A stretch of DNA of 59,440 nucleotides, the filler included, from Basidiobolus ranarum (Eukaryota), in assembly GCA_040143965.1 (NCBI GenBank). It is 4 parts of 4 records of this genome, joined end to end, with 100 filler letters (N's around TTAATTAATTAA, not from the genome) between each part and the next. Parts side by side here need not be neighbours in the genome. Positions count along the whole stretch, not along the records: positions 44,689 to 59,440 come from JASJQH010000413.1; 3 more parts are not named here. One strand, written 5' to 3'. The notes under the pieces were generated by a model. The model was given only the letters and a program-made list of their open reading frames with translations, did no database searches and was not told the origin of the DNA. The translations under genes were made by a program, and so were the position numbers. Shown one piece after another: positions 14,810 through 59,440 of the stretch (position 1 is its first letter; the number at the start of each line of letters is the position of its first letter).

Positions 14810-14836
14810 AGGCGCTACCCTAAAGGCGCTACCCTA
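14802..14836. repeat. 14-bp tandem repeat (taccctaaaggcgc) running into the gap
   Basis: About 2.5 copies overlapping the lyase stop codon. Confidence 0.8.
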
Positions 14837-14936
14837 NNNNNNNNNNNNNNNNNNNNNNNNNNNNNNNNNNNNNNNNNNNNTTAATTAATTAANNNNNNNN
14901 NNNNNNNNNNNNNNNNNNNNNNNNNNNNNNNNNNNN
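14837..14936. other. Assembly gap with TTAATTAATTAA linker
   Basis: 44 N + 12-nt all-frame stop linker + 44 N. Confidence 0.99.
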
Positions 14937-29734: not shown

Positions 29735-29834
29735 NNNNNNNNNNNNNNNNNNNNNNNNNNNNNNNNNNNNNNNNNNNNTTAATTAATTAANNNNNNNNNN
29801 NNNNNNNNNNNNNNNNNNNNNNNNNNNNNNNNNN
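29735..29834. other. Assembly gap with TTAATTAATTAA linker
   Basis: N run with linker. Confidence 0.99.
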
Positions 29835-40303: not shown

Positions 40304-41586
40304 GGTAGTAAAGTAACTGATGATTAATGTAGGAGATCAGACTCGCTATATATACACCGATGTCGCAAGACTTGAAGGTAACTGAGAGAATATTGCCACC
40401 AGCAGTACTATAATAAAAACGAAGTACCCCATCCGCTGTCATACATTAGATACATTCAAACTTATGTTAATTCATCAGACTTTCGTAAACTAGCAATATA
40501 GTACAAGCACCAGGTATTGTATAGAAGATCAATCGAAAGAATCTTCGATTTAATTAAAGTGTCACAAAGAAATCTTAATTTCTAAAACCTACATCTTGCT
40601 TGAGAGGACTAATCAGGGAGTGGCGATTAGAGAGTGTGCTACTTTGGGTAGAATCTTCGTAGCATATGAAATTCAAGAATGCGTTGATAGCAATTATCTT
40701 GGATGTCCCCGAGTGGTTTAGCTTTGAGTACAAATCGGGAGTCACGGCATTTAAGCTTAATTTCACTTTAGGAGGTACCAAGGGGGAGTTGAAACCTACT
40801 TTATATTAAAGCCAACTACTGCATCTGCTTCGTTATTGTTAATGCCTGGCCAAATTTAGGTCTACAATAGCTGGACATTGTTTGAGCTAGAAGAGTAGAG
40901 AACTTGATTATTTGATGTGCATGCAATATATCTTCTTAGTACCCTTGGCATTCACTGATGTTTCAGTTTAGGTAGCATTGATTTAATTCGGTGGAGGTAC
41001 AACTAAAAACCAGTTTAGTGTAATGAGCTGATTCGTTTCAACAGTCGTTTTCTTGAAAAACTGTAAAAAACCCATTTTGTTGCTGTTACTGGGATTTCTT
41101 TAGATAACGAGTACGGAGTTATTGTGAGATGTTTAACCATTCAATCATATTTCAAACACTCGGTTATCTCTTCCGGTTAGCAGCAAGCTGTGAATAGGAA
41201 ATTACTCTCTTCATTTGTGTAGCTTGTCTTACACTCGCATGTGTTATGAACTGACTAGTAAATTCAGTAAATCACCCATCCTTGTGTCTCTGGGTAATTA
41301 CCGTTAATAATGAAAACCCAAACGGTAAGTTACTTCAATCTTACCGAATGCGTGTTATATATCACATAATTCCTACTGGATCATATTCATATTGCAGAGA
41401 GTTTTAGACATGAATATCCCAAGCTGTACATTGATTAATATTTGGATTAATGATAATAATATATGCACTAATGATAACATTTTTTATTTGCTAGCCTGTG
41501 GAATGTGGCATGATTTATTTACATAAAGCATCATAACGCTGAATTTCAGGAGCCATAAACCATCAATTACATTGAATCTCACATGC

Positions 41587-41808
41587 TTAGTTTTTCATGT
41601 AGTTATGGTTACGATCTTCAAGTTTGGGATCACTTACTGCAGGATTTTGTGCCCTTCCAGCTGATCCGCCTTCTCTAGGATTGCCTTTATCATCAACATT
41701 CGCTAGTCGTTGTGCTTCACGTTCGGCAACTTCCTCTGCAGTGGGGGGCTTGATCTTGTGAATTTCAGCTTTGGTGGCAAGGTTGTCTCCGATAAAATTG
41801 CGTTCCAT
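41587..41808 (-). CDS. Small hydrophilic protein (hydrophilin/SMP-LEA-like), 73 aa
   Basis: ATG 41808 with TATAAAAG ~70 nt upstream; charged, no Cys/Trp; GGSAGRAQ motif. Confidence 0.55.
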   Translation of the reverse strand: MERNFIGDNLATKAEIHKIKPPTAEEVAEREAQRLANVDDKGNPREGGSAGRAQNPAVSDPKLEDRNHNYMKN

Positions 41809-42010
41809 AGTAAAGGTTAATTGATATTGGATAAAAGTAGATAGAATGATGATTAAAGAGCAATTATCGTTCACTTTTATAGTTTCCAGAGAACTGAATC
41901 TTCCGTCATTATGACTGCTCTATGCATTAGCTTAGGCAGTATTTCACTTGATTCTTGAAAATAGCTGACATCATGATATCCAAAGGATGACACAACACTA
42001 TAGTATTTGT

Positions 42011-42046
42011 TGCGGTTAATCATTCAAATGCGGTTAATCATTCAGA
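42011..42046. repeat. 18-bp tandem duplication
   Basis: tgcggttaatcattcaaa / tgcggttaatcattcaga. Confidence 0.85.
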
Positions 42047-42842
42047 TGTATCAACTAGACTCATAGATAAGTGGCATAACCCATATGCTATGACGAAACA
42101 TGCTCTACTATCAAATTGTTTACTTAGATTGATCACTCAACCCTTAGTAACTTAATCAAAATACTAACGAAACCTGTTTTAATATTATGCTATCGACCTA
42201 AATTCCTGACCACTTGGTACTGCTTCTAACTAGTATAATGATAGTAAACAATCCCCTCTGGTAGTATCAATACGTCTTCAAACCGATAGTAGTTCATTCT
42301 TATTAACTAACCTAACTATAAAGCGGATACCCCAGCCCTGTATCATTCTCGATGTTGAAGGTGAAGGCAGTCTCCAGGTGTGAATTGACAGCTCTCAAAG
42401 ACCCTGGCTCATTGTGACTGAATCAATTACTAAGCATGTAGTCACGTGATGAGATAACATTGCAAGCTTTATTCATATAGAGAATTCATTGCATTTCAGC
42501 GAACCCTCCATCTTTTTATATCCCTAACATTTCCTGGAATGAATAATCTCTGCTTAAATGCTGCCATTAATAGATCCTTGTGGGGTTAGGATCCATGAGA
42601 ATAATTCATCATTGCTTTGTGCTGATCAACGATAATCTGATATCATGTGCGATTCCAAACCTATGAAAAAATTTCGCAGCCTAGCCAATCATGATGGCAA
42701 GAGGTGAAGGTGAGATCAGTCATTGCGGCTGAAAGAACTGAATGGGGGATATAACTCCCCCCAATTCCAACTACAACTTGAAATATTTTCCACCTAAAGA
42801 CTAATATCTTGCGAAAATACTTTACACTAACAGTTTAACAAT

Positions 42843-43313
42843 ATGCTTCGTACTCTTGTCAATCCTTTCTTTCAAGCTCGTCAACAAATCCTTAACACAC
42901 CTAAAGTGTTAGGAAGCGTTCGTCGTTATCACGAAAAGGTCATTGACCATTATGAACGCCCTCGTAACGTTGGCTCTTTGCCCAAAAATGATCCCACAGT
43001 TGGTACTGGGTTGGTCGGTGCACCTGCTTGTGGTGATGTTATGAAATTGCAAATCAAAGTAGACGATGCGAGTGGGAAAATAGTGGACGTCAAGTTTAAA
43101 ACTTTTGGTTGTGGATCAGCTATCGCTTCTTCTAGTTATGTCACTGAACGTATCCGTGGACTTAGTTTAGATGACGCCGGCAAAGTAAGAAACACCGAGA
43201 TCGCCAAAGAACTCTGTCTTCCACCAGTAAAGCTTCATTGTTCCATGTTGGCTGAGGATGCTATTCGTTCAGCTATCAAGGATTATCAAAAGAAGAGAAG
43301 TGCTCAAGTCTAA
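42843..43313 (+). CDS. ISU1: Mitochondrial Fe-S cluster scaffold IscU
   Basis: YHEKVIDHYERPRNVG, GAPACGDVM, FGCGSAIASSS, LPPVKLHCSMLAEDA. Confidence 0.98.
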   Translation: MLRTLVNPFFQARQQILNTPKVLGSVRRYHEKVIDHYERPRNVGSLPKNDPTVGTGLVGAPACGDVMKLQIKVDDASGKIVDVKFKTFGCGSAIASSSYVTERIRGLSLDDAGKVRNTEIAKELCLPPVKLHCSMLAEDAIRSAIKDYQKKRSAQV

Positions 43314-44265
43314 ACTTCCTACAATACTAGAAGCACTTTGCTACTTGGATACCAATCCCAGTTCACATATCTCTCCATTATCACTACACATCAATATTCT
43401 ATATTTTTCATATCTGCGACGTTTATCCAGTACACTGAGCATTACAAGTTAACCTTGGTATTCTTGGATATCTTCCTATTCTGACCGGCATTTCAGCTTG
43501 TATCAACTGTTGGTCAAGATAAATTAGCGTCATACTGTATATACACAGTGGCTTTGCAATCTATTTTTCATATCCCTTATTTCATTATCGAGTTGTTTCT
43601 ACACTTTAGTATTTTCGGAAGCATCTTCAATAAACAACCTTGGACTTATGATAAACAACTGAAAGTAATTTTAGCCAGATATCTTCTTTCGATGACTGAA
43701 GCTATATATTGATCCTATTGTTAATCACATTCATAAATGTAAATTCATTTTACTACTATTTCATTGGGTGAACCGAATCCATTCCTCAAAATCTGATAAT
43801 AATAAACACTTGTAATCAGATAATGGCTTCCTAACCCCATCATTTTAACTTGGATGACGTGTTTCTTGTGAGATGTATCGGTACATCCCAATTGGTTAAA
43901 TGCTGGTTTAGGATATTGCGATATTTCATATTACTCGAAGACTATTGTTAAGAGTATTTCTTCCCTGTGCTGTCTTATAGCCTTTATTGTAATAGTGTAG
44001 TAAATGATCTGAGATAATTGTATGTTATGATTGCACCTTGTTAAAAATTCAGTACCCCAAGGTTAATTTCAGAATTGGCAAATTACTCGCAATAAAAAGT
44101 GGTATATAAGCTAAATCATGATAAATAGCAACATTAGGATTTAGTTAACTAGCCAATTTAATGAATATATCTATATTTTATATTGTTTATGTAGTCTCAA
44201 TCAACCAAGATATTTCCATGAACCTATAGTACTTTTCTCAATGTTTGCTTATATTGTTCAATTAT

Positions 44266-44448
44266 TTGAGAGCCTGTTGGAAGTAGTTTAGAGAATTAAA
44301 GAAATTGATGGGTTTCACTTATTGATTTATTGAGTTGAAAGTTGACATTTATAGTTTTGTCAGGATGTAAGCAAACTAACGTGTAGAATGTGTTAAGGAA
44401 GTTCTCAGGAGCATGTGTGCAAATTTTGGCGCATCTAGCACAAGTTAT
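44266..44448 (+). mobile_element. Dispersed copy of the 20770-21088 repeat family
   Basis: ttgagagcctgttggaagt...catgtgtgcaaattttgg...agcacaagttat aligns with 20770-20952. Confidence 0.85.
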
Positions 44449-44588
44449 ATGCAATATGCACTTGTTATTTTATTGAATTGAGAATAATTATTTACACTGA
44501 CATTGGAAGTGATGACAGGGATGTGTTAGTAAGGTATTCAGAAACTTGAGTCTAAAGGTTGAAAAACCTCTATCTTTTTGAACATTTC

Positions 44589-44688
44589 NNNNNNNNNNNN
44601 NNNNNNNNNNNNNNNNNNNNNNNNNNNNNNNNTTAATTAATTAANNNNNNNNNNNNNNNNNNNNNNNNNNNNNNNNNNNNNNNNNNNN
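44589..44688. other. Assembly gap with TTAATTAATTAA linker
   Basis: N run with linker. Confidence 0.99.
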
Positions 44689-44799
44689 ATATATTGTTGC
44701 TAATATATATAAACCAAAACTTTGTAACTCTATTCCTAAAAAAAAACTTACTAAGTCATAACTTGATATTAAACTAGTCATTCCTAATGTTGTAAATAG

Positions 44800-47700
44800 C
44801 TTGATTTGTACAAAGACATAGGCAGTGGTGGACTCGGTAAGTTTAGCGATTTTAAGATCCCCCTAATAAGCCGTTGAATAACATCTTCATTTGTAGTTGA
44901 CAAGGTTATAATGGCGCAAGATTGCCTTGAAAGTCTGTGTAACCATATTGTCGCCAATAGCTACGCTGAGCTCACGCATGTTAACTATCATGCGCTAGAT
45001 CAGAGGACTATCAAACTCTTGGGGGTATATGGAAATCGCCCTGCCATCAGAAAATTCGTTACCGATGTTAGCGATATCTCTCAGCAAGATGCAGAATCGT
45101 TAATGCCAGACAGTGATCTTACCTTCAATCATGAGAAAAATAGTATCGATGTCCAAGAGGGTGCACTGCATGCTGGACTATACTTACTGTTGATAAATTC
45201 ATCTGACGAGTTAAAAGGGTTTGTTATTCATTGGCCTGAACCCCAATGTTACAGCGATAAAGCCACAAGCAATACGAAGAAGAATTGCATAATGTTTCAT
45301 CGGTACGGTGTTTGCAACAGAAAACTGAGCTCTTGTTCTTTTGTGACTAACCAGCGCTATGAATTTAGGTATCTTTGTAAACTTACTGAGCAGCAACTCT
45401 GTCTTGTATCTGATGATGATTTGAATAATTTCGAGTTTCAATCGGATGAAGATAATTTGTTGCTGGATGCTTGCTTTACATTTGAAGTCAAGAAAACACA
45501 AGAGCAGAAGGAAGATTTTCAAATATCTACGGGATTTGTGGTAAAATTTAGCATGGTATTCTATTTTAAGTTCTCGCGATAACAAAATCTTCATAGATAC
45601 CCGTGAAAAGTGACACACCGATAGGTCCTGTAACTTCAACTCATCATGATATACAAAAACATTTGAACCCGCAAGTTGTAGATTCCGAAACGAAACAAAG
45701 CTTCCTCACGTGCCAGTTTGTTCCTTCAACAATCGTCGAACGATGTGAAAACAAAATTTTCTATAATAATGGAAGTACTCGTAGTTTCTTGGAAAAGAAA
45801 CTGTCAGCAGAGAAATGTCGCTTAGTATTTGATCCTTCTCTTTCGCACCACACGTGCAAGGAAGTTATTGAATGCTTAAAATCACTTACTGACTCACCAC
45901 TTGGCAATATTGATGACGAGTACCAAGAGGTGATGGCACAAATCGAGGAGGATAAAAGCAAAAGAGGAATTGAAATCAAAGAGAGATTTAGCAACTTCCA
46001 AAGTGACATCAAAAAGCATGCACGGATAGTGACTGATAACATACTAAGTAAATCCTATCCGTAAGTACCATATGCGTGTATATTTTTAAACCCCCATTGC
46101 ACTATTAACTTCTTTGTAAAGTGAATGGTATGCGTACTTTATCAATGCAAGAAATGCGACCACGATGGAAACCTCAAGATCCGAATCACCTTTCGAAAAC
46201 GAAACTGATGCATTGGAATCTGTATCTGTGAATATTCTAGAAACCGAAAACACCACTAGTACGGATGATAGCGAGCATACCAAGAATGCAGAATTGGACA
46301 GTCTTTCCCAAGGTTCGGTCTGTATTTTATCATTCAATCCAAGAAGAAACTAAAACCATCGTTATAGAATTAGAACTGGTAAAGACAAATGATGATACGA
46401 CTCTCTCTGTGAATCTGAACGAAAAGATCGAGGAAATAGGTTCGACTGTGGATTCGTTCGATGATAGCGATGAATTAATCGAATGCCAAGCTGATGTCGA
46501 TAAACAATCTCCAGAAAAGATTCCAGGGGATACCGAATATCAAAAGTCACTCAAAGGTTGTTTTCTTTAGTTTGATACAGCATAAGGATGAACCATACTA
46601 ATTTGTTTTTCAAACTCAGCTTTATTGAAGCACGACTCCAATATACTTACTTTTATTAAGAACAAACTGAAGAGAATTGGAGATCAACAGTGGATAGAGC
46701 AAAAAACGAACTTCATCCTAGCACATGATATGTATAAGCGGCAGAAAACAGGATCATTCAGTGACGCCATATTAAAAACATGGGGACCCTCAGGTAAAGA
46801 GGATTCTTCGCTTAATGTTTTAAAAGGTTGGCTGTCCCACCTATCCTCAGGAGTCTTCAACATGTTTAAACCTGAGACAAAACAAACAGCCAAGAGTGTC
46901 AAAAGGGCACGAGGTATGTCTGATGCTGACTTTATCACTATGCTGTTGAAGGCTACCAAGGACGATGTGCTCGATGATAGAGAAGCCAAAGTGATTCACG
47001 CGATTATGATCGTATTTAATAATATCTTGATGGAATACTGCGAATACATAGTGGACGAGATTGCTGATGAGCTGAGATATTTATTGAGACGAGAAATGGA
47101 TAGCCTAAAAACAGAGATAGAATCCCAAACACTAGCATATGAAAAAGAGTATATAATCAAAGCAAAAAATCGATTGGAAGAGTGCTACTCGGGAGTCGGT
47201 CGACCATTTAAGATAAAGAGCTTTGATACCAACCGAAATCTCAACAGCATATCTTACTCCGAAGAAACCAAACAGCCGGACATCATTCGATATTACCTTC
47301 ACTTGACCTACATCCAGGAATCTGATATTCGCGAATTGGAACAAGGGAGTGACAAGATACTAACACCCCAATTTGAAGGCAATTCATCCAAACAACTACC
47401 CTACCATTTCGAAGTGCAGTATGAGGACCAATATCTCAAGTATGTTCAAGTCACAATCAAGTTTTTGACATCGTTACTAAATATCAGTGATTTAGGCATA
47501 TTTATCAGACTAATAATGGGAAGTTTCTAGTCTTTTTGTCGTCATACACCGAGAATACTCTTAAAGTATATTATGCCGCTGCGTCCATGATTGGAAGGCA
47601 AATCAAGGAAAATAATTTTCTCAAACGATTCCAGATACATCCAGAGAATGCCATGGTTGCCGTAAACGAGGCTAGTCAGTTGATTGCCCTATATGACAAG

Positions 47701-50700
47701 TCGAGTGCTGAGGTATGTAGCATTATGTCAACTTAGTTAAACTTCAGGCTTATCTGACATGTATTCTTATTAGGCAAATATATACATATTTGACGAAGAA
47801 TGCGAAACGCTTTGTAATCGCTACAGCAACATTCAAATTAAACTTTGGTACGATCTCCAAACTCCCAATATCAGCCATATCCTGTTCCCTACTGGTAGTG
47901 AAGAGCTATGTTTCATTGAGAGCAATGGAAAAGCGCGCATCTACAGCATGATTCAACAACAAATTCTCCCCAACTCAATGCTAATTCCAGAAAATGCCAC
48001 CCGTGTAATGTCCACTCCTGATGGCTCTTGTCTAATAGCTCTTTTAGAGGAAGTCGAACCTATCTGTATGAACTCAGAAAACAATGATTTGACGAACTCA
48101 GTCATCTTGGATAGCGAAGTTACTATATGCGAGGGCCCAGATGCTCCCAAACAACTTCCAGTTAAAGAAACTCGAAAACTAATGGCTTATGTCTGGTTTT
48201 GGAGTGATTTTGGACAAACCGAAAAAGTACGCAAAATCGAACTTCCTCACAACGTTGCTTCACTTGATTCAATCTCAACTTCAATGGTTGGAGGTCAACA
48301 AGTACATTTAACAAGCTTCAACACGGAGCAGCATATCTTCACGTCTGCTTACGTTGGGATCACACTGGAGAGAAATCAATGGCAATTCAGAGAAAAACTT
48401 GCACCATCTAAATTCAGAGGTAAAATCTCTCTCGCAATCAATGAAGTTGCAGGAAATACGTTTTTCTTTACTGGAAAAGACACATCGTTTAAAAGAGATA
48501 TCAAGCCCAATGGTCATATTATATTCGTCGGCAATCGATTCACAGTCGAAGAGGTCATATCTGACATACTGCTTAAGGTTTCTTTTGTGAGCGAACATTC
48601 ATGGATACCATTGGAAAAGCTTCGCACGTTTGATATTTATCATTATGAAACCCCTTCCAAAATAAACGATCTCCTGGATTGTTACAAGTCCATGTGGGAG
48701 CGCTATCCCGTCAATAGCTTCATAGAGCAAGAAAGCGGATTGGTTGACATGAAAAGTATGCAATATCTGAGGATTGGAACGAATACGAGTCACATCTTGA
48801 ATGACGGAACCCTCCCAGACTACAAAGCGTTGTTTGAAGCCTATATGAACAGACAAATTCATAACTTGGATAATGACACGAGGAAACCAATCTCCAAGCT
48901 CAAGAATGATTTCAAGGTTGATGTCGTTGATGCCAATTCTATTGATTTTACCAACTTACCTGAAAGCTGGTTTAATCAATACTATTGCGGCAGGTGGTTG
49001 ATTAAGCTTGGCTGTCTGCTGCCAATCCAAATTGCAGTTGCTAGAGAAAATCAATTTGTTCCGCTCAAGGACGGGATCTCTTGTCACGACCTCGATAATC
49101 AATTAGCTGGTGGTGACATTCCTACCTTAGCAGCAAATTGCACTCTGGGATGGTACGAGTCAATATTTACATACTATTGTGATTATCCAGTTAAAGTCAT
49201 CAGCTCGATGGGAAGCCAATCCCTTGGAAAAAGCTTTCTACTGAACCATTTGGCCGATTCTTCTTTTGCTGGTGCGGCAACTAGATGTACCGAAGGAATT
49301 TGGCTGTCACTCACCCCCACCAGAGATGAGAGTGGCCCATATCTCTGTGTACTTCTTGACTTTGAAGGGCTCAAATCTATTGAAAGGACACCACAAGAAG
49401 ACGTACTGATGAATTTATTCAATGCAGCGATCTCGAATTTAATATTGTTTAAAAACGATTTTGCCATTGGAAGAGACATTCATGACCTTTTTCAAAGATT
49501 CCAGTCGGGCGCCACTATCTTCGACCCCGCCCAGAATCCCTCATTGTTCCATTCTCATATGGTAATTGTCATTCGGGATGTTCCTAACAATGATCGGTCA
49601 GAGATAGTGCGAGAATTCCAATCTAAATTCTCACAAATCGTATCCAAAGAGGGAGAGGACAACTTCATTACGAAACTCCACGGATCTCGACTGAGTATAT
49701 TACCATGGCCTATGTTTAACGATCCACAGTTTTACACAACCTTCAACAGTATTAGCAAAATGCTTAATCAGCAGAAGTTCACCCACAGCAATGCTAGACA
49801 ATTTTTGCAAAATATCAAAGTACGTTCATGCAACAAAAATATAACTTTACTTACTATTCAGCATTATCTAACCTTAGCCTTAAGGTTCTCATGTGCAAGA
49901 TGAAGATATGCGATTGGTCGTCTTTAGATAATAATCTCATACAGATACGCACCAAACATCTATCATCTTTCCTAACTTATGCCATTGCTACTGGTACAGA
50001 GGAAATGGAGCCGTTTGTTGAACCTTTAAAGGTTAGGAAGGATCAGCATACCAATGCATCATATACCAGTACTGACCACTTCTTTACTCTTCTAGAATTA
50101 TGATGATGGAACTGTACTAGCCGAGGAAGCTATAATCTTTGAGCACAATTTAGATATTGACGATGAAACTCATTATGTTGAGCTGCCTTGTGATTCTGGA
50201 CTATTGCTAGACTCGGAGGAAACATTCAAGGAAATGAGTATGCATATTCGCGAATGGGTCGATACTTACATATACAACCGACAAAAATGGCCGAAATCTG
50301 ATGTAAGATGGTTCGAAGTGTTTTCCTCTTTGACACAAAAATTGATCCAGCGAAGACGCACGCGAGTTATCAATTGGATAGATCAAAACATCGGTCGGTT
50401 CCCACCAGAAAATAGCGACATCTCAACACTACAACATAACCTTAGTCAGAGCATATCCCAATTCGAAAGTAAATGGGAAATTTGTGGGCTAACGTGCTCT
50501 CACTGCAATCTGAGATGTCTTTTGAATAGGTTCCACAATGAAGAACATGACTGTTGTACTGATCACACATGTCATCACGCTTGTTCATTTTCGAGTCAGC
50601 ATGAAGGGAAGTCTCTTATTGGTGGCACTCTTTGTGGACTTCATGCAGGGCATGATGAAGCTCATGTGTGTGACACCGCCATCCATTTATGTGGAGCACC

Positions 50701-53116
50701 CTGTGTCCTTCATAAAAGGAGAAACTGTCTAAAAACCTGTGCAAAAGCTGCGAATCATAAGGATGAGGAGCACAAATGTCAATCAAGTGTACACTTTTGT
50801 GGCCAGGTAAGCCATTTATATATCCCTACTATCTTAGTAGCACCATTATTGACCTTGTACTGTGATAAAACGTAGCCGTGTTCTCTGCAAGGGGTAATCC
50901 AACATGACTCCACGGTTTTCAACTGTAATAATCTTTGTATCATTCCTTGCGAAACGCCCCATGATACTCATAAGTGTGAAAACCAATCATCATGCCCGCT
51001 TACATGCCCACTTGGCTGCAATCTCACTTGCAAGAGTCGGGATCACTTCCATGCTCTTACTGAAGATGCACATCATTTTTGCGGGTAAACTTCTGGATGA
51101 GAAACTTGAATTTTAGCGAAGAAATATGCTCTAATACAGTGAAATTATTTGCGCAGGAACGAACACTCTTGTCCTGAGTTGTGCGAGGTCAATGGCATTT
51201 GTGAAATCAAACTAGAACCTCAGGTTGCAGAGGAGATGTACTCCAACAAGCATGGAAGCTTCATGTATACCAAGGTACACAGTAGTAGAGTAACTTGAAG
51301 ATATGATTCATAATGATTCTTATAACTTCTCAACTGTTAGTACACTCAAATTGCGCATAAGCTGAGGTGCTGCAAGAAAATCCCGCCAAATAGTTACACA
51401 CATCGTGGTATTCATCAGCACACCGTAGATACAAAACTCTTTCATCATTGCCATAAAAAAGTAAGATGATCTATTACGATGACATGTGATGCATTTTTAC
51501 TGACATTGGTTTACATTAGTGTCCTAATTGTGAATATTTCTGCACACTTCCAATCGGACATCCACAAAAGCTTCATGAAACCTCTCATGGAAATATGATC
51601 AACACTAGGTTTTCTGCTGTTGACAATGAATTTGAACTTCAATCCCATACATTCAATGTGGGCGATAGTGGATCGTGCTTCCTTTGTAACATGGTAAGCA
51701 GCTCTTTTGAATGAATAAGGGATCTGTCAATACTAAGCGATGTTCTATAGTACTGTCAAGAGTTGGGTCCACACACTCATATCGAATATTGCGAGATAGG
51801 ACCCTCACATTCTACAATCGCCGTCGATAAAGAACGACAGCACGTCCAAGGTCAGCTCAAGCCCTTCCCTGATCGCCCCAAAGATTTTATCACCCACAAG
51901 CTTTTCTGGGAAAGAACAGGATTTAAAGGTATCTTGGGATTAATAGTAGGCACTTAGTACGATACTAAGCATTAATAACATGTATACATTTAGATCCCTA
52001 CGGAAAAGAGAAGCAAGACTTATTCGGTAGATGTGACGCCTTTTGCCCAGATGAAAAACATAAAGACAAGAACTCTAATCGTTCATATTGCACACTTCGA
52101 ATGTTCCATGCTCCACTAACCTCTCAGGGTGGCTCTTTGCAGGGAACACAAGGATATATCTCTAGTATGGTTTATCGAAGTGTTTACATCTAAAATTTCT
52201 TTGTTCTAACTTCGTGACATTTTGCATAGACGATGGACATTTCTTTGAATGTGCCAATCCTACAGTAGATAAATCGAAATATCACATCATCTTCTGTTTA
52301 GATACCTCATCCTCCATGTTGAGCTATGACTTTAGGCCTATTGTTGGCTCGCCGTTACATAGAAGACTGCAGTCAGGCTATGATAATCGATTTGGTGCAG
52401 TTCTTGATGCTACATATCGATTCCTCCAGTCTAGACAGAGTACCTGGTCCAATGAGCCAGATGGACGAGATGCAGTCTCTGTGGTGCTGTTTAGTACTTC
52501 AGCCAGTGTGCATTTACAAAATGATACAAACTTGGATGCCATGGAAATAATTGAAAGTATATTAAGTTCGAAAATATCCCACCATGGTACTGATTATGAT
52601 AGTGCAATGATGACTGCCAGTCGGTTGATTCAATCGAACTGGGACCCGAAAATGTCGGTATGATTTCAGCGTTATTTCATTGACTCACACCTAACCATCA
52701 TTTACCACTAGGCCAGCAGTTATAATCTTTCTCTCAGATGGCGAATGTGGATATGATCGTGAATTGCATACAAATATCTTTGAGAATCATGCATCGAAGG
52801 GGTAATATACATAAGAACATGTTCATTAGATTCCCATTAACTCTGACTCTATATTAGACAAGCTACTGGATTTTTCTCCATCTTGTTCTCGCCTACTGAG
52901 AACTATAGCTCATCTTTGAAGGAGATGGCTCAAATTGCCAAAGCCCAATACCGCACTATGCTAAAGCAGAAGTCAAGCAACTCCATACTTAGTCACGATG
53001 AGGACAAGATACCATGTGGCTATCATACAGCCATAAATGAGGTAGACTTGAGCCAACATTTCTTGCAACTGGCCAAAAGTTTACGAGAACAGCACCCTTC
53101 GCTCATGCGAAACTGA
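44800..53116 (+). CDS. Giant (>2000 aa) protein: N-terminal region, GBP/VLIG-type GTPase, Cys/His-rich Zn-finger array, C-terminal vWA domain; 5' end probably in gap
   Basis: G1 GSQSLGKS, G2 RCTEG, G3 DFEG, GBP-type RD (VIRDV); repeated H-x-C / CGxxC units at ~50480-52250; v[25 protein letters not shown] introns join the ORF-track fragments; upstream exon 44800-44836 splices in frame. Confidence 0.85.
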
Positions 53117-53408
53117 TCAATATCGTCAGCTATGCTCAGATGAAAATGAAGAAGTTTCCAGCTCATTATGTATTAATCTCAATCATATATGAGTTCTTAC
53201 CGGGTAATAAAATGAAAAACAAATCTCAAGATGCACAGGTCTAGGACTGTATAGACTAGGTTTCCATTCACGATTGTTTGAAAAGAGAGAGCAAAAGGCC
53301 ATTATTTTACTTCAATGTAAAACATACCCCAGCAATAAGTATATACAGCATCACCATGGTTGGATGAATGGCAGGAGGTTTAAGGGGCGGGAGAGAAATA
53401 TACAAAAT

Positions 53409-54380
53409 TTAGTGTAGTAGAATCTGATCTGGATCTATAACCTTATCAAGAAAAAAATCATATTCATCTAGCAACATTAGAACCACGACTATCCCATCGC
53501 TTGAATAGCAAATACCAGCTTTCATATTCAACTCTCCCAAGGGTGAGAGAAATGTAAACTCAATCTGACTGACTAACGAGTGAAACTTCCCTGTCTTTAT
53601 GGTTCTCACCTCCTCCTCCACCAAATCAAGCTCACTCTTCTCAACATAGCTATAGAACGAAGTCCCCAAAAGAGTTTTCGCGCGTATCCCTAAGGTTTTA
53701 TCCGTATCTCCCACACAATAAATGATGTGACAGTAGTCGGAAAAATGATCCAGAATAAATCCCACGCGGGGTTGTTTTGGTGGATACGGGGGTATAGTGG
53801 CTGCTATAGTATGGTACACATTTCCCTTTATCTTGGTTATCCCTTCTGGACCCTACAAGTGCGCAACATATTTAGCTAAAGTGCACAAAGGGTAAAGCAA
53901 TAGATTTCAACTTCACCCAGATATAAATATCTTCATGGTCAACCCAGATGACAGTTTCCGCCATGCAGGTACTTTCTTAAAAAATAGCAAAATTCAATAT
54001 TAGTGAAAAGGTAAGAGAATTACTGTTCAGAAAAACCCACCAATTAATAAATCATCTTCGAAATCACTTTCTGTAAGTTTTCTACTAACACAAAAGTGTA
54101 AATCTTCACAACAGAAGAATATGGTTTGTAATAGAATATCTCCTTTCGCCGTTCGGATATTATTATACAAGATCGTACCAAATGCTTGAAGATCCGATAA
54201 GCATTGTAAGGAAGTATACCACGCAGCTTTATTTGGAAAAGCCAGAGTAATTTTTTTATCAACCAACTCATTTTCGTTATGGCCAATCACTTCACCAAAA
54301 CTTGGCGATAGATAAATGAAAGTAGGATCTTTGCCATCTTCCCCGGTGGTCGAGACAGAAATGTAGGAAAGAGTGGACAT
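53409..54380 (-). CDS. Stand-alone tandem PAS-like domain protein (2 introns)
   Basis: FIYLSPSFGEVIGHNENELVDK (PAS start); second domain PRVGFILDHFSDYCHIIYC...LLGTSFYSYV...SSDGIVVVL. Confidence 0.7.
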
Positions 54381-56916
54381 AAAAAATTCGATTGTGTGAA
54401 TGGTATTAGATGTAGTACATCTTCAATATTAACAACGTAAAGGCCTTTAGTTTAATATATATACGGTATTTTTACTCTATCCGATTTGTCCCATTTATGA
54501 CCGCTTGCAGTTTTCCTGTTCATTCCTATTGAAAGGGAAAACCGGAAAAAGCATCTTGTACGAAGAAAAAGAATTCCACACAAGAGTGCTTAATGGTTGC
54601 ACCAAATTTCTTTACTGGTGTGTAAAATTCGGTACGTCGACAATTGAACCGTTCACAGAGCACAATCTGGAATAAATTCCAAAAGTGGAGCGGTTTAGGA
54701 TATAGTTGATGTTTTAATGAAAACCAGAGTGTATCCGTATTAGCGTCAGGTTGTATCGATGAAAATACCACCATGCAAGGGGAGGCGCGTTGAATTAAAT
54801 GGGAAAGTGTATCTATTTGGGGAATATTAGCTGATGCCTATAATTGGTAGATTTACGCCCATTATTACTAGTGAGAAAATCCCTAATTTCGTATTGAATG
54901 ACGCTTGGGTGTTCGTATCACGCTTCTACCCTAGTAAGCCAATTAAAAGAGCCAGGCAGCAACCGTCTCCATACTTTAAAGATCTTGGTTTAATTACGTG
55001 GAAACCTAATGCCACCGCTAATTATTGCTCCAATCTAAATGGATGCACGTGAAGATTCAATACATATTGATGAATCAATACTTTGTGAAGTGTCACCTCG
55101 ATTAGCTACATGATGGACATAATTGGGGAAGCACAACACGACATACCTGGTGAGCATTACAAGAATGCATGCGGAAAAGAGGATTTCCAGATTGTTGGGA
55201 ATCGAACTGGTACACATTGTGCCCACACTTGCTATTTCATATATCGCTTAGATACACCAACTTCCGGAGACTCCGTCGTTGCGAATGGATGATCGTGATC
55301 TTATTAGAGGTTCGCTAATTCCAAGAAAGCCACCCACTCCGAACATGGAAGAGAGCTGGTATCTCCGATTCCTCCAAACTCCGCATATATCTGGCCACTG
55401 GTTAAGTCTCACCAATTGTGGAGATGCATTCCGAGCAAGAAAGGCATCGCCACCGGAAAAAGGCAATTCTATCTATTCCTAAAAAGTAGCCGAATTGCCA
55501 AAATCACTGGTCTGGCACGTAGCTAAAGAGTGGTCACAATGAGATAGGGGCTAGAGCCAGGGGCTGTAGGATCCGAACTCTTCCAAATCAGTGCAGAGTA
55601 TACTAGCACAAACAGGGCCATTGGTATTCTGTTGAACTCGAAAGTAAAACAGTGATTCATGGGGCGATATATTGGAATCCTTCTGATTTACAACCAACCG
55701 ATGACTCACCGTTCTGAAGTGAGCAATCAATCAGTTTTACTTTACAATGTATCTGAATCAAGAAGGGTTGTTTGGTATTTATATCTATCAAAAGCAGGAT
55801 ATTCCCAATGCTGCTTTGCTTCAAGCGGAGGTAGATGCGTTCATTTAGCGGCATCCCTTGATTGGTGTAGCTCTGTGTGACTTTTGCAGACATTGGTAGC
55901 AGGGTGACACTTCGCAAACACCCAAGATAGCCCGCATCAAGATTTGCTGTTAAGATTTCTATTTGCCGCTTTCCATGTACTATATAGACACCATTAGCAT
56001 CAATAGCAGGCCGCTGGAGTGCCAAGTTGATGAATTCCTAAGTTGGGACACCTGGAGCTACCAATATGGTTCTGGCTTAACCTGGAAGGTTTTAGTAGGA
56101 CGTGATGTATGGGCAGAACCGGTACTCACGGTCTACAGACTGCCATTTACATGCGTAGAAGGATCGTACTGCAGTGACCTTGTTTTATGTTTCATTATGT
56201 TGATTTTCGTATCTAGTTAGAGGCTAAAGTGGATCCAAACCAATCCACAACAAGATTATTCTAACTGGCCTCATTCCAGAAATTATCTGACTATTTGTGG
56301 CATCTTAGTTTCATTCAAGGAATATAGAGGTTACCTTGCGTTACCTGTGACTCCCCAGAAACTGAATATTGATGGGTCATCTAGTTGTAACGTTTAATAA
56401 TAGTTTTGGATTACTCTAACCTGATAGGACCATGCCATAGATCACATGCCGATTACTCTGGGCTTGACAAAATGCCCCACGGCTACAACAATGGAGCTTC
56501 ATGGTGTTGTTCCAGGCTCATGTAATAATGGGCAGTGGATAGGGGGACATACGATGAGGACATTAACTACTTTATCTTGCTGAATTTATTCTGGTCATTC
56601 TCAATGGACAAGGTCTTTGTAATGCCGTAATAATGCATCGGTGAATGAAGTAGCCGTGTATAGGTGATATTTAGGATAGCTACTATGCTGATACAGCCTA
56701 TGATTGCAAGAAGATTTGTACATGTTTACGAATAGAGTTGTATGGATTTCCGGTGCCTATTTGAAATTCAAATGAAAGAGAAGATAAGCAGGAGGCCACG
56801 CTCCTACTATACAGAGCACAAGAATATTCAACTACGAAATCGACTCCATATGAATTATAATTAGTTTGTTACTTAAGCCAACTACATATCTCAGAGATAA
56901 ACCTTCTTCGATAATA

Positions 56917-58122
56917 CTACAAAAATGCTAGCATGTCCTGAAGATTACCATCGATAAGACTACTGTTCATGTCCGAAGCTTTCCGTTTAACTGAGGAGAG
57001 TGGTACGAGGTTTGTGGCGTCTTCAAGACATGGCTTCATCTTCAAACGATCTTCAAGAATTCCTGATGGTATTGACCCTGTTGACGAAATTGATGAGCCT
57101 CGCATCTCTGGTGAGCAAAATAAACTAGATCGTTGTGATTCTTGTTGACATTCGTATGTTATCGGTACTACGCCTTCATTTTTCTGTTGATGCTCTGGGC
57201 TTAGGAAGTACAGTGTGTTGGATGCTGCTGATCTCTCGGATTGTATCGACTCTTTATTGCTCATATAATGGCTCATTATATGGTCCCTTGGATATGCATT
57301 ATAGCCCGAGTAGTCAGAATATTGTGAATATGATGCTGAGCAAGTAAATGTATTAAGCTCAGCTGTATTAGAGTAATTGTGTGTAAATCCATACGAGGGT
57401 TTTTCCAAATGATCCGTTCCATAGTCTGATGGGCGTCCTTTAAGAGCTACTAATAGAGTTAGAGTGGTTTGGATAAATCGATTCTACGTCTTCAACTTAC
57501 CTTCCAAGTTTAGGCTGCAATTGTAGTCTACCGAATCAACTGAGGAGCCTATCGATAAAGCATATTCTCCACCATCTGAAAGACGTGAATTATTTACCGG
57601 TGAAGTTGAAGACCGATCATGGAAATGAAAAGAAGGCGACTGATGAAAACTCAATGGAGTGCTAGGACAGTGAGGTGAATTTGAATGCTCAAAAGAACTA
57701 GAAGAAAGGCTGAATGGATTATGGACAGCCTCGTCAGAATTAAAGGTACATTCTCTCAGAAGATAACTTGACTCGACCAGGAAATTCCCTTGCTGTTCCT
57801 TCTTTAACTTTTGACGCCGGTTCTGAAACCATATTTGAACCGCACGTTGATGCATCCCAAGCTCTTTAGCGAGTGTTCTCCTAACTTCGGTTCTTGGTTT
57901 GGTTGTTTGTTCAAATACCTGCATCAACCGATTAACCTGTTGCGGGTTGAGACGATTTCGACGTTTGATTTCTCGGTCAGTGTCTTCCATTTGGAATTTC
58001 ATCGATTCCTTAGAATTCCTATTTTTTATACTATCAATGGTCTTGATTTCGCTGGCGGTGTCAATGCTCAACTGTGGGTTATCCAAGAGAAACTCGGGAA
58101 GGTGGTGATTGAATTTCGTCAT
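56917..58122 (-). CDS. Homeodomain transcription factor (Q50), 1 intron
   Basis: KRRNRLNPQQVNRLMQVFEQTTKPRTEVRRTLAKELGMHQRAVQIWFQNRRQKLKK followed by a Ser-rich tail. Confidence 0.92.
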
Positions 58123-59440
58123 TCAAGAGAGACTTGGGAAGAGGACTGAAGAAGAAGTTAATTTCGTGCTAAGTACCATTCTTTGGATTATATACTGAGG
58201 GGCAGTCTATTCACCAAATACGCAGCTCTCCTGATGATCCAGTCCGCATATTCTAAAGTGCAGATGTATACAATATGAAGAAGCACTGATAAATCGATCA
58301 AAGTATGGCTGATCGATCGAATCTCCAGTGCTGGCTCTCTGCATCATCATATTTGAAAGTGACCTACAAATTGAATGATCGGGCAATCATTCATCATCTG
58401 CTCCGATGATCTTTAACGCATTCTTGAAATGTGCCTGAACCTAATATGAGGCGACTGTAGGATTCCCTCAACGTGGTCACATAATAGATTTAAGCTCCAT
58501 GAATGAGATGTATCTGAAGATTCAATGCAAAGCCATAAATGATAATCTTTGAGTGACTCTGAAGGCTGTGATTTCGCCACTTGAAGGTGTGCTTTTCAAT
58601 AAACCAAGTATTGGTACCATCTTCATGTATGAATTGCGGCGGCAGTAAGTCTGGGCTACTTTATCAAATGAATTGAATCGAGTCCGCTACTCGTCCGAGC
58701 ACACATCCCCTAAACCATCAGCACCCTCCACTCGAAAATGGATTGGACTAGGTTCTAATCTAAGATCATGGGTGCAATTGAATCTAAGATTTTTATGTTT
58801 ATTCGTATATACCATTTACTCACAAAACAATACCCTGCTCCCATTGGATTTAGCCAACATCACCCATTTCTAGCCTCTCATCGAGATTTGCCCCTTAAGC
58901 ATGCATCAGCCAGATATTACATTGCCTTCTAATCAGCCCCTCTCCCCCTGCGATTACCGACAATGTATAGCTAGACGCTTCTTCATAGGGATGATTATGA
59001 ACGAAGCCGTGTCTATCAACCTACCTGCCGATGAGTTCTCTAACTGCGAGTATCGGCTATTAGGCTAAGAAAGTCCAGAGTTAGACAGGGAACGATCAAC
59101 TCGAATATGCACTTCCATGTTTGATATGAAAAGGTGACGAGAACTGATTGTCTCAAGGGAAATGCAAAGATGACAAATTTAAAGGATGAACGTACAAATC
59201 TCGGAGCATTCCATAACCGACAGTATATGATGTCAGTTCTCCCTTATACCATACTGTAGTGTAAAAAAAGACTACACGATACTTCAAAGTGACCAATCAT
59301 TCGAAACATTCCATTCTTCACAAGGTCTATTTTTCACTAGCTTTCCTAAACATGCCCATTTCTCCATGGTTTTCTTCTCCTTTTCTCACCGAACAAGCCT
59401 TGACTGTGGTTCGTGGATTTCTCATTCCAATGCATACATA

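What the first reader, a model, noticed from the sequence alone, without database searches (positions are those of the whole stretch)
44800..53116. Giant GBP/VLIG-type GTPase + Cys/His Zn-finger array + vWA protein: candidate fungal innate-immunity or non-self sensor
Seen: one multi-exon gene of >2000 codons with intact GTPase motifs ([19 protein letters not shown]), a long run of Cys/His units (e.g. [36 protein letters not shown]), and a vWA domain with a complete MIDAS (DTSSS...T...D). Known: GB1/RHD3-family GTPases of the GBP and VLIG type are cell-autonomous immunity effectors in animals; NF-X1-type Zn-finger arrays occur in the antiviral ZNFX1; MIDAS vWA domains bind ligands through a metal ion. 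Inference: this is a single-polypeptide sensor/effector for antimicrobial, antiviral or allorecognition defence. It lies next to a repeat copy and a gap, as fast-evolving accessory loci often do. I know of no functional description of this architecture in fungi.
Basis: partly seen in the sequence, partly recalled or inferred. Interest (0 to 1): 0.85.

Follow-up and report, generated by a model that had tools for sequence, protein, structure and literature searches.

The report
Giant GBP-like GTPase with zinc array
This is a real, intact fungal gene for a very large GTP-binding protein that also carries a long zinc-binding stretch and a metal-dependent adhesion-type domain; it belongs to an old, widespread eukaryotic family that nobody seems to have studied, and an immune role is possible but unproven.

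Summary
The gene is real. It is GenBank 'hypothetical protein K7432_007905' of Basidiobolus ranarum: 19 exons, 44911-53116, 2363 codons. One more upstream exon lies at 44800-36, so the true 5' end lies beyond the contig edge.

Folding and fold search confirm two domains: a GBP/atlastin/Sey1-class G domain plus middle domain, and a vWA domain with a complete MIDAS. Between them lie 69 family-conserved Cys/His residues, enough for about 17 zinc sites. Pfam does not call them NF-X1-type.

Upstream lie a novel alpha/beta domain and a split WD40-like propeller.

The 'gap' is an artificial contig spacer, and I found no repeat copy beside it.

The architecture is conserved across fungi, where no named hit was from Ascomycota, and the G-Zn-vWA core occurs in plants, red algae, amoebae, a malawimonad, an oomycete, dinoflagellates and an acoel.

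Copies are tandemly amplified in some Agaricomycetes and numerous in Glomeromycotina. I found one copy in each Basidiobolus species, and no hypervariable sensor region.

The immune reading remains plausible but untested. I found no paper describing the family.

The parts
44589..44688 (.). Artificial contig joint (N44-TTAATTAATTAA-N44). Not a biological gap and not part of the gene.
   Evidence: the identical spacer is at 14837-14936 and 29735-29834; the contig length recorded for P0001 is 14752, equal to 44689..59440.
44800..44836 (+). Upstream coding exon missing from the deposited model ([12 protein letters not shown] plus 1 nt). It is followed by intron 44837-44896. Earlier exons lie beyond the contig edge.
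   Evidence: sequence read directly; tblastn of P0002 starts at its residue 196 at window 44800; P0002 reads ...[27 protein letters not shown].
44911..53116 (+). Deposited CDS of K7432_007905: 19 exons, 2363 codons plus stop. Exon coordinates are listed.
   Evidence: the spliced translation equals P0001 exactly; 18 GT..AG introns of 55-72 nt.
44800..45429 (+). N-terminal alpha/beta domain 'N1' (P0001 residues 1-151 plus the upstream exon). Family-conserved residues include GLVDK, WPE and RNR..F.RYL. No known family.
   Evidence: conserved columns; alpha/beta fold in the homologue P0229, residues 38-210, block-mean pLDDT about 75-95 apart from one short dip; mapping to P0001; no consistent Pfam family in 0 of 23 members; no PDB sequence hit for this region.
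45511..45767 (+). First set of beta-propeller strands (P0001 179-245).
   Evidence: Propeller matches span model residues about 246..1012 of P0229, so they include these strands. This is inferred for P0001 through alignment A4.
45780..47161 (+). Helical/acidic insertion of about 400 aa (P0001 250-650) inside the propeller. It is the most variable part of the protein.
   Evidence: long helices 309-703 in P0229; mapping; identity 35% between the two Basidiobolus proteins and 69% among five Phellopilus paralogues, the lowest of all segments.
47249..48628 (+). Main part of the WD40/NHL-like beta-propeller (P0001 about 680-1100).
48641..50028 (+). Pre-G helices plus the large G domain (P0001 1105-1545). 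P-loop 49211-49234, RCTEG (switch I Thr) 49283-49297, DFEG 49358-49369, RD 49568-49576.
50029..50473 (+). Helical middle domain after the G domain (P0001 1546-1672).
   Evidence: helices at model residues 426-508, pLDDT about 90; the GBP1, Sey1p and atlastin alignments run to model residue 510.
50483..52255 (+). Cys/His array (P0001 1676-2115). 69 family-conserved Cys/His, enough for about 17 tetrahedral Zn sites. Recurring unit: C-x3-C-x5-H-x3/4-H-x-C-x4-H-x-C-x3-C.
   Evidence: near-invariant C/H columns in 74 sequences; count and spacing; mostly coil with short strands, block-mean pLDDT about 70-93 with a few short dips to about 55-60. Fold class not tested.
52268..53113 (+). vWA domain with a complete MIDAS. 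D2131-x-S2133-x-S2135 at 52301-52315, T2227 at 52589-52591, D2257 at 52737-52739.

Best explanation
The region is one intact gene. Its 5' end is cut off by the contig edge. It encodes the Basidiobolus orthologue of an ancient, uncharacterised eukaryotic family of giant soluble GTPases.

Domain order:
- a variable N-terminal extension (not on the contig)
- a novel alpha/beta domain
- a WD40-like propeller split by a helical/acidic insertion of about 400 aa
- a GBP/atlastin/Sey1-class large G domain with a helical middle domain
- a Cys/His array with about 17 zinc sites
- a vWA domain with a complete MIDAS

Most likely mechanism:
1. GTP binding closes two G domains on each other, as in every studied member of this G-domain class. 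This step is inferred.
2. GTP binding and hydrolysis move the middle domain. This changes how the rigid zinc array and the vWA domain are presented. This step is inferred.
3. The MIDAS metal then captures an acidic side chain of a protein ligand, while the propeller and N-terminal domain hold a second target. This step is inferred.

The protein would thus act as a nucleotide-gated assembly scaffold.

Shown here: the gene structure, the folds of the G, middle, vWA and propeller domains, the motifs, and their conservation.

The phyletic pattern is old, with vertical descent, many losses and local tandem bursts. That pattern fits an accessory rather than a core housekeeping role. Conflict, defence or symbiosis surveillance is the single most likely setting, at about 40%.
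For: Gene:
- An exact 19-exon match to P0001.
- An extra upstream exon.

G domain:
- Pfam GBP is above its cut-off.
- PDB sequence hits are GBP5, GBP1 and GBP2.
- The AF2 model has mean pLDDT 82.7.
- Foldseek: hGBP1 1.2e-10, then RNF112, GBP2/5, atlastin-1/3 and Sey1p.
- G1, G2, G3 and the (K/R)D motif are near-invariant in 74 sequences.

vWA:
- The MIDAS residues DxSxS and Asp are near-invariant in 74 sequences. The MIDAS Thr is present in P0001 and stands in the family consensus 'GGT'.

Zinc array: 69 conserved Cys/His.

Propeller.

Solubility: the highest 19-residue Kyte-Doolittle mean is 1.38.

Architecture conserved among the 228 stored relatives: G 228, pre-G 208, N1 157, Zn 153, vWA 130. 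Many of those sequences are fragments.

Age and descent:
- Named relatives occur in Chytridiomycota, Endogonales, Glomeromycotina and Basidiomycota.
- Outside fungi they occur in conifer, fern, liverwort, red alga, Amoebozoa, a malawimonad, an oomycete, dinoflagellates and an acoel.
- A G-domain tree of 40 rows gives a fungal clade and a non-fungal clade, each with 100/100 support. Groupings within them largely follow taxonomy. I chose those rows from the roughly 300 stored proteins because they carried taxon names.

Accessory character:
- None of the named hits is from Ascomycota, out of 88 + 19 + 61 hits listed (a few of them unnamed) and the named clusters.
- Five Phellopilus copies lie on a contig of the same length, 743,496 nt, with per-segment identity 69-95%.
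- At least 8 clusters come from Tulasnella sp. 403 and 9 from Rhizophagus irregularis.
- One relative, P0083, replaces the fungal N-terminus with three B-boxes and a RING.

Principle of G-domain dimerisation-stimulated hydrolysis in this class: passages of PMC12012479 on RNF112.
Against: - No biochemical or expression datum exists for any member that I could find.
- The GBP, atlastin and RNF112 P-loop arginine finger is replaced by Ser (GSQ-S-LGKS against GLY-R-TGKS; alignment). Catalysis cannot simply be copied from GBP1.
- The fold class of the zinc array and of the N-terminal domain was not tested, because both fold-search lists were filled by other domains.
- The propeller and N-terminal folds come from an Endogone homologue (P0229, mean pLDDT 70.4). 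They are carried over to the window's protein by alignment.
- The taxon sampling comes from word-seeded searches with length limits. 'Absent from Ascomycota' and 'single copy in Basidiobolus' are therefore weak negatives.
- The family's high conservation would also fit a conserved cellular job: about 50% identity in the G domain across fungi, and invariant Cys/His.
Confidence: 0.5

Rival explanations
1. The protein is a dedicated innate-immunity or allorecognition sensor-effector. The propeller or N-terminal domain recognises a microbial, viral or non-self cue. GTP-driven oligomerisation follows, as in GBPs. The Zn/vWA tail or the N-terminal domain then executes the response.
For: - The G domain's nearest solved relatives by sequence are the immune GBPs.
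- Recent tandem amplification in Phellopilus (5 copies on a contig of the same recorded length, 69-95% identity per segment) and many copies in Tulasnella, Rhizophagus and Rhizoctonia.
- Patchy distribution with apparent losses.
- The N-terminus is swapped for a TRIM-like B-box/RING module in P0083.
- A WD40 propeller occupies the place where fungal NLRs carry repeat sensors. This last point is recalled knowledge, not tested here.
Against: - One copy per Basidiobolus species among the hits.
- No hypervariable recognition domain. The propeller is 89% identical among the Phellopilus paralogues and 65% between the Basidiobolus species, while the disordered linker is the variable part.
- The G domain is structurally just as close to the non-immune Sey1p, atlastin and RNF112.
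- No hit in PADLOC.
- No NACHT, NB-ARC, HET, TIR or HeLo domain in Pfam.
Confidence: 0.2
2. A GTPase-coupled zinc enzyme or nucleic-acid binder. The Cys/His array would be the business end. It could be an atypical E3 ubiquitin ligase or an RNA/DNA-binding module, as recalled for RNF112 (RING plus GBP-like G domain), RNF213 and ZNFX1. The G domain and vWA would regulate it or recruit its substrates.
For: - 69 conserved Cys/His with a recurring 8-ligand unit. This is the second most conserved segment between the Basidiobolus orthologues, at 78-80%.
- RNF112, a RING-bearing dynamin-like GTPase, is among the best structural matches of the G domain. Its E3 activity is described in PMC12012479 (passages).
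- P0083 adds a RING and B-boxes to the same core.
- Among the best vWA matches are TFIIH subunits, which pair a vWA with zinc fingers. The match is; the composition of those subunits is recalled.
Against: - No RING, RBR, HECT, NF-X1, CCCH or other zinc-finger Pfam family hits the array in P0001 or P0002 at E<=1, or in P0089, P0086 or P0172 at E<=0.01.
- The protein-atlas search of the array gave no usable hit.
- In RNF112 the E3 and GTPase activities are reported to be independent of each other.
Confidence: 0.15
3. A housekeeping membrane- or organelle-remodelling GTPase of the atlastin/Sey1 kind, with extra domains used for tethering.
For: - RHD3_GTPase is the best-scoring Pfam G-domain model, at 31.6 bits.
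- The P-loop GxQSxGKS without arginine resembles Sey1/RHD3. This is recalled, not tested.
- The G domain is highly conserved.
Against: - The RHD3_GTPase score is below the curated cut-off of 42.4 and covers only profile positions 1-87 of 245.
- No transmembrane-grade segment (highest 1.38).
- The C-terminus shows no CaaX-type lipidation motif (sequence).
- The family is missing from all named Ascomycota hits and is multi-copy elsewhere. This is unlike a core single-copy function.
Confidence: 0.1
4. An annotation artefact. Two or three neighbouring genes (N-terminal/propeller gene, GTPase gene, Zn/vWA gene) were fused by the gene predictor.
For: - No RNA evidence could be obtained.
- Many database relatives are fragments that carry only some of the segments.
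Against: - The same order of N1, propeller, G, middle, Zn and vWA recurs in independently annotated genomes of several phyla and in transcriptome assemblies (Soliformovum, Gefionella, Dracoamoeba).
- All 18 introns are short and canonical, and the reading frame is continuous.
- The single exon 8 alone joins the propeller to the G domain.
Confidence: 0.03

Closest known systems
Human guanylate-binding proteins (GBP1, GBP2, GBP5)
   Same: - Large G domain followed by a helical middle domain.
- The best PDB sequence hits: E 6e-4 for the single protein and 5e-5 with a family profile.
- (T/R/K)D in place of NKxD.
- Pfam GBP above its cut-off.
   Different: - About 2,550 aa against about 590 aa.
- No P-loop arginine finger (Ser instead).
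- No CaaX box.
- Carries an N-terminal domain, a propeller, a zinc array and a vWA domain that GBPs lack.
- Sequence identity is only 12-16% in the structural alignments.
Sey1p/RHD3 and atlastins (ER-fusion dynamin-like GTPases)
   Same: - RHD3_GTPase is the top Pfam G-domain score.
- P-loop of the GxQSxGKS type. The Sey1/RHD3 side of this comparison is recalled.
   Different: - Below the Pfam cut-off (31.6 against 42.4).
- No transmembrane hairpin.
- Not single-copy and not universal.
- About 1,900 extra residues made up of other domains.
RNF112 / ZNF179 (RING-bearing dynamin-like GTPase)
   Same: - A GBP-like G plus middle domain combined with zinc-binding modules in one chain.
- Foldseek 2.5e-10.
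- Its G domains dimerise in the transition state, and dimerisation stimulates hydrolysis (PMC12012479, passages).
   Different: - RNF112 has one N-terminal C3HC4 RING and an arginine finger.
- This protein has a C-terminal array of about 440 aa with no RING signature, no arginine finger, and an added vWA domain and propeller.
VLIG / GVIN1 and URGCP (very large inducible GTPases of vertebrates)
   Same: - Giant size with the G domain in the middle of the chain.
- A partial URGCP_GTPase Pfam match: 28.9 bits for P0001, up to E 2.9e-10 in relatives.
   Different: - Below the curated cut-off of 55.
- Only profile positions 188-263 of 396 match.
- That VLIG and URGCP lack a zinc array and a vWA domain is recalled, not checked here.
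Intracellular vWA proteins with zinc modules or MIDAS (TFIIH p44/p34, Rpn10, midasin, integrin I domains)
   Same: - Complete MIDAS as in integrins and midasin. The midasin and integrin side is recalled.
   Different: - None of these is fused to a GTPase.
- That the TFIIH and Rpn10 vWA domains lack a full MIDAS is recalled.
- The top rows differ by less than 1 Z unit, so no single vWA subfamily is singled out.
ZNFX1 / NF-X1-type zinc-finger arrays
   Same: Long tandem Cys/His units that contain H-x-C-x3-C. The spacing here is; the NF-X1 consensus is recalled.
   Different: - No zf-NF-X1 Pfam hit at E<=1.
- The unit here has 8 ligands with the spacing C-x3-C-x5-H-x3/4-H-x-C-x4-H-x-C-x3-C.
- No helicase domain.

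Membership tests
GBP/atlastin/RHD3/VLIG class of dynamin-like large GTPases | P-loop GxxxxGK(S/T), switch I Thr, and DxxG | tested here: met
   GSQSLGKS at 1295-1302, RCTEG at 1319, DFEG at 1344. These columns are near-invariant in 74 sequences.
GBP/atlastin/RHD3/VLIG class of dynamin-like large GTPases | G4 reduced to (T/R/K)D instead of NKxD | tested here: met
   VIRD at 1413-1416 at the end of a beta strand. The Asp is near-invariant and the family consensus is IIIKDV. Its equivalence to the GBP1 motif is inferred from position, not from a printed alignment.
GBP/atlastin/RHD3/VLIG class of dynamin-like large GTPases | Large G-domain fold followed by a helical middle domain | tested here: met
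   [not shown]
GBP family proper (Pfam PF02263) | Score above the curated cut-off | tested here: met
   25.5 bits against a cut-off of 21.1, but only profile positions 18-95 of 264 match.
GBP family proper (Pfam PF02263) | Catalytic arginine in the P-loop (GBP1 GLYRTGKS) | tested here: not met
   In the HMMER alignments to GBP5, GBP1 and GBP2 the Arg column is Ser in P0001 (GSQSLGKS).
Sey1/RHD3 (Pfam PF05879) | Score above the curated cut-off | tested here: not met
   31.6 bits against 42.4; profile positions 1-87 of 245.
Sey1/RHD3 (Pfam PF05879) | C-terminal transmembrane hairpin | tested here: not met
   The highest 19-residue Kyte-Doolittle mean in P0001 is 1.38. The usual threshold of about 1.6 is recalled.
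VLIG/URGCP (Pfam PF25683) | Score above the curated cut-off | tested here: not met
   28.9 bits against 55; profile positions 188-263 of 396.
Dynamin-superfamily mechanism | Nucleotide-dependent G-domain dimerisation that stimulates hydrolysis | not testable with these tools
   Needs protein biochemistry. The principle is taken from RNF112 (PMC12012479, passages).
vWA domain with MIDAS | vWA Rossmann-like fold | tested here: met
   [not shown]
vWA domain with MIDAS | DxSxS ... T ... D metal-ion site | tested here: met
   D2131, S2133, S2135, T2227 and D2257. DxSxS and SDG are near-invariant in 74 sequences.
NF-X1-type zinc finger (Pfam PF01422) | Match to the family model | tested here: not met
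   No hit for P0001 or P0002 at E<=1. Short zinc-finger models are weak, so a remote relationship is not excluded.
WD40/NHL-like beta-propeller | Propeller fold | tested here: met
   [not shown]
Fungal NLR / STAND immune receptors | NACHT or NB-ARC NTPase domain | tested here: not met
   No such Pfam hit in P0001 or P0002 at E<=1. The NTPase here is a GBP-class GTPase.
MACPF/CDC pore-forming domains (lead for the N-terminal domain) | Detectable similarity of the N-terminal domain to MACPF/CDC | tested here: inconclusive
   The only support is language-model feature scores of 0.77-0.83, a range the tool says shuffled proteins reach a third of the time. No MACPF Pfam hit in 0 of 23 members at E<=1. 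No PDB sequence hit. The fold-search lists were filled by the propeller.

The most novel reading that the evidence does not exclude
The G-Zn-vWA core is a LECA-age, cell-autonomous defence module. In this reading it is a giant GBP-like GTPase that oligomerises on a recognised target and uses its roughly 17-zinc array and MIDAS domain to seize or modify that target. Lineage-specific N-terminal heads supply recognition or execution: the novel alpha/beta domain plus split propeller in fungi, and B-box/RING elsewhere. That would make it a missing relative of animal GBP and VLIG immunity, and a new, non-NLR arm of fungal innate immunity. It would also fit the bursts of copies seen in mycorrhizal Agaricomycetes and Glomeromycotina.
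Probability: 0.25. Interest if true: 0.85.

Novelty: new variant of a known kind. Interest (0 to 1): 0.6.

Why it matters
GBP-class GTPases are central to animal and plant cell-autonomous immunity, and their relatives atlastin and Sey1 drive ER membrane fusion.

This gene shows that the same motor is built into a quite different machine of about 2,500 residues. That machine also has a split propeller, about 17 zinc sites and a metal-dependent vWA domain.

The machine is old. It is found in fungi, plants, red algae, amoebae, a malawimonad, an oomycete, dinoflagellates and an acoel. I could find no study of it.

If the family proves to be a defence or surveillance device, it would open a non-NLR branch of fungal immunity. 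It would also give a deep evolutionary context for GBP and VLIG proteins.

If instead it has a cellular role, it is still a new type of nucleotide-gated scaffold, and the N-terminal domain has no known relatives.

For this particular genome the practical points are two. The deposited model lacks its 5' end. The apparent 'gap' context is an artefact of how the window was assembled.

Tried and rejected
- **Own-genome search for paralogues.** No genome is held for this window.
- **Expression evidence.** No RNA support could be obtained for the model or its 5' end.
- **MACPF/CDC lead for the N-terminal domain.**
  - It came from the protein atlas with scores of 0.77-0.83.
  - It was not borne out by Pfam on 23 members, by profile searches of PDB sequences or by the fold searches.
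  - The domain was never searched on its own, so its fold class stays open.
- **Atlas search of the zinc array** (P0172 residues 500-905). No usable hit.
- **PADLOC and NCBIfam on P0001.** 0 families each.
- **Complex prediction.** I sent two copies of the G domain (residues 60-400 of the typed stretch) with GTP and Mg. The verdict was 'no answer', score 0.00 in both runs, the alignment was not used and the controls were not run. This is no evidence either way.
- **Earlier findings of this scan.** Nothing by words or by sequence.
- **Literature.** Nine searches found no paper on a GTPase-Zn-vWA family. Only the RNF112 paper was opened, as passages. The others were seen as listings only. Subscription-only papers and supplements were not searchable.
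- **A hypervariable recognition domain among tandem paralogues.** Not found. The helical linker is the least conserved segment.
- **A repeat copy next to the gene.** Not found.
- **A first, larger alignment (A1, 74 rows).** It was too big for the folding machine, so I used a 44-row one.

Full report
**Where the window comes from and what the 'gap' is.**
The window holds three identical spacers of 44 N, TTAATTAATTAA and 44 N, at 14837, 29735 and 44589. It is therefore four contigs of about 14.8 kb joined artificially.

Nothing upstream of 44689 is physically linked to the finding.

A blastn of 40001-44588 against the window returned only itself, so I found no 'repeat copy' either.

**The gene.**
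The 709-aa stop-free frame 47774-49900 is 99% identical to P0001. P0001 is 'hypothetical protein K7432_007905 [Basidiobolus ranarum]', 2363 aa, and UniRef calls it a VWFA domain-containing protein.

A script that walked the protein along the DNA reproduced P0001 exactly from 19 exons, 44911..53113, with a stop at 53114-53116. The 18 introns are 55-72 nt long and all have GT..AG ends.

The B. meristosporus orthologue P0002 has 2552 aa and is 75% identical over the query. It carries about 210 more residues at its N-terminus. Its residues 196 onward align from window position 44800.

Reading the DNA shows an exon at 44800-44836 encoding [19 protein letters not shown]...TAG intron follows at 44837-44896. 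The frame then runs into ...[12 protein letters not shown].

So the deposited model starts at an internal Met. The true 5' exons lie beyond the contig edge, and 44689-44799 looks intronic. No RNA evidence could be obtained.

**Domains, C-terminal half.**
Pfam gives the following for P0001:
- VWA_2, 4.9e-12.
- GBP, 25.5 bits, above its cut-off of 21.1.
- RHD3_GTPase, 31.6 bits, below its cut-off of 42.4.
- URGCP_GTPase, 28.9 bits, below its cut-off of 55.

All three G-domain matches cover only the stretch from the P-loop to switch II. The only PDB sequences hit are GBP5, GBP1 and GBP2, at E 6e-4 to 1.4e-3. In those alignments the GBP P-loop arginine aligns with Ser.

I folded residues 1165-2363 with a 44-row family alignment. 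The mean pLDDT was 82.7.
- Foldseek against the PDB gave hGBP1 at 1.2e-10, followed by RNF112, GBP2/5, atlastin-1/3 and Sey1p.

The MIDAS is complete (D2131, S2133, S2135, T2227, D2257) and near-invariant in 74 relatives.

Between the middle domain and the vWA domain, residues 1676-2115 carry 69 Cys/His conserved in at least 85% of relatives. That is enough for about 17 zinc sites. A recurring unit reads C-x3-C-x5-H-x3/4-H-x-C-x4-H-x-C-x3-C.

No zinc-finger Pfam family, NF-X1 included, hits the array. Its fold class could not be searched separately.

There is no transmembrane-grade segment.

**Domains, N-terminal half.**
I could fold only a homologue short enough for the tool: P0229 from Endogone, 1116 aa, with a 51-row alignment and mean pLDDT 70.4. 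The model shows three things.
- A well-predicted alpha/beta domain at residues 38-210, which maps to P0001 residues 1-151.
- Long helices at 309-703 inserted in between.

The alpha/beta domain has strongly conserved residues (GLVDK, WPE, RNR..F.RYL). It has no consistent Pfam match in 0 of 23 members and no PDB sequence match. A search of shorter proteins found it only in fragments of this same family (19 hits).

A language-model lead to MACPF/CDC pore formers scored 0.77-0.83. Nothing else backed it, and it stays an untested lead.

**The family.**
- With the 709-aa exon as query, 88 long relatives were found.
- An exhaustive phmmer search found 998 representatives at E<=1e-3 and 255 at E<=1e-30.
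- BLASTP of P0001 segments against the 228 proteins then stored found the G domain in 228, pre-G in 208, N1 in 157, the zinc array in 153 and the vWA domain in 130. Many of those proteins are fragments.

The whole architecture is therefore the rule in this family, not a Basidiobolus oddity.

Named fungal members come from:
- Basidiomycota, chiefly Agaricomycetes
- Glomeromycotina
- Endogonales
- Chytridiomycota

Named members carrying the G-Zn-vWA core come from:
- Cryptomeria
- Galdieria
- Soliformovum and Dracoamoeba
- Gefionella
- Lagenidium
- Convolutriloba

G-domain searches also returned relatives from a fern (Adiantum), a liverwort (Riccia) and Symbiodiniaceae. Their precomputed Pfam or segment hits include vWA.

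None of the named hits was from Ascomycota.

I built a G-domain tree from 40 named rows chosen out of the roughly 300 stored proteins. It separates a fungal clade from a non-fungal clade, each with 100/100 support. Inside them it largely follows taxonomy. Basidiobolus sits next to Basidiomycota with 97/93 support.

That pattern reads as old vertical descent with many losses.

One unnamed relative, P0083, has three B-boxes and a RING in place of the fungal N-terminus.

**Does it look like an immune gene?**
For:
- GBP-class motor.
- Patchy distribution.
- N-terminal domain swapping.
- Bursts of copies. Five Phellopilus genes are recorded on a contig of the same length and are 69-95% identical per segment. 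At least eight 90%-identity clusters come from Tulasnella sp. 403 and nine from Rhizophagus irregularis. Adjacent locus tags occur in Coniferiporia, Collybiopsis and Tulasnella.

Against:
- Each Basidiobolus species contributed only one protein in the two searches that could have shown paralogues. This is weak evidence, given the tool's word seeding and length windows.
- The G domain is 92% and the zinc array 78-80% identical between the two species.
- Among paralogues the least conserved segment is the helical/acidic linker, not the propeller.
- The G domain is structurally no closer to GBPs than to Sey1p.
- PADLOC gives nothing.

I therefore rate an immunity or conflict setting as the most likely single role, at about 40% in the broad sense. 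The strict sensor-effector model gets about 20%. Neither is shown.

**Mechanism.**
Shown: the folds, the motifs and their conservation.

Inferred from the G-domain class:
- GTP-dependent G-domain dimerisation with stimulated hydrolysis. The RNF112 paper documents this for the structurally closest zinc-bearing relative (PMC12012479, passages).
- Movement of the middle domain.

Inferred from the complete, conserved MIDAS: metal-mediated capture of an acidic residue of a protein ligand.

The missing arginine finger means the catalytic details must differ from those of GBP1, atlastin and RNF112.

A homodimer prediction job returned no verdict and is not used as evidence.

**Literature.**
Nine full-text searches found no paper on a GTPase-zinc-vWA family in fungi or elsewhere. 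The searched library omits most subscription journals, and supplements were closed, so this is not proof of absence.

**Verdict.**
The molecular observation is correct, and the gene is a genuine, intact member of a large, ancient, unstudied family. The genomic-context argument is an artefact. The NF-X1 label is unsupported. The immune interpretation is a reasonable hypothesis with circumstantial support from other fungi but none from Basidiobolus itself.

I class it as a new architectural variant of the GBP/atlastin/Sey1 kind of GTPase, of moderate to high interest.

Noticed in passing
window 14837-14936, 29735-29834, 44589-44688: Three identical N44-TTAATTAATTAA-N44 spacers. The window is four contigs of about 14.8 kb joined artificially, so any argument from synteny across these points is void.
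   Followed up: yes
window 14800-14836: The first contig ends in tandem copies of a unit of about 15 nt, (TACCCTAAAGGCGC)n, which contains CCCTAA. It could be a telomere-associated or subtelomeric repeat at a contig end.
   Followed up: no
window 56920-58122, minus strand: Downstream neighbour on the same contig. It is a homeodomain protein gene (Pfam Homeodomain 2.3e-16 in the 212-aa frame 57487-58122), probably continuing in the frame 56920-57483.
   Followed up: partly
window 53412-54422, minus strand: Two open frames (147 and 131 aa) directly downstream of the finding look like exons of a convergent gene. No Pfam hit at E<=0.01.
   Followed up: partly
P0083 (unnamed ENA protein, 2623 aa): A relative of the G-Zn-vWA core that carries three B-boxes and a C3HC4 RING at its N-terminus, a TRIM-like head.
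   Followed up: partly
P0068, P0211, P0282 (database names): Family members are mis-named in the source records. Two are called 'Vacuolar protein sorting-associated protein 13A' (Ceratobasidium, Serendipita) and one 'root hair defective 3 GTP-binding protein' (Rhizoctonia solani).
   Followed up: no
P0149 (Serendipita sp. 399, FRC17_007456) and P0155 (FRC17_007458): P0149 begins with a vWA-like segment (residues 1-213) ahead of a normal N-terminal half. Its locus tag lies two away from another family member on the same 42-kb contig. This suggests a tandem array with a fused gene model.
   Followed up: no
P0215, P0257, P0258, P0084 (Cryptomeria japonica): A conifer carries at least two or three neighbouring loci of the family on one chromosome-scale record (LOC131038022, LOC131038025, SUGI_0691170). 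So the family is also multi-copy in a plant.
   Followed up: no
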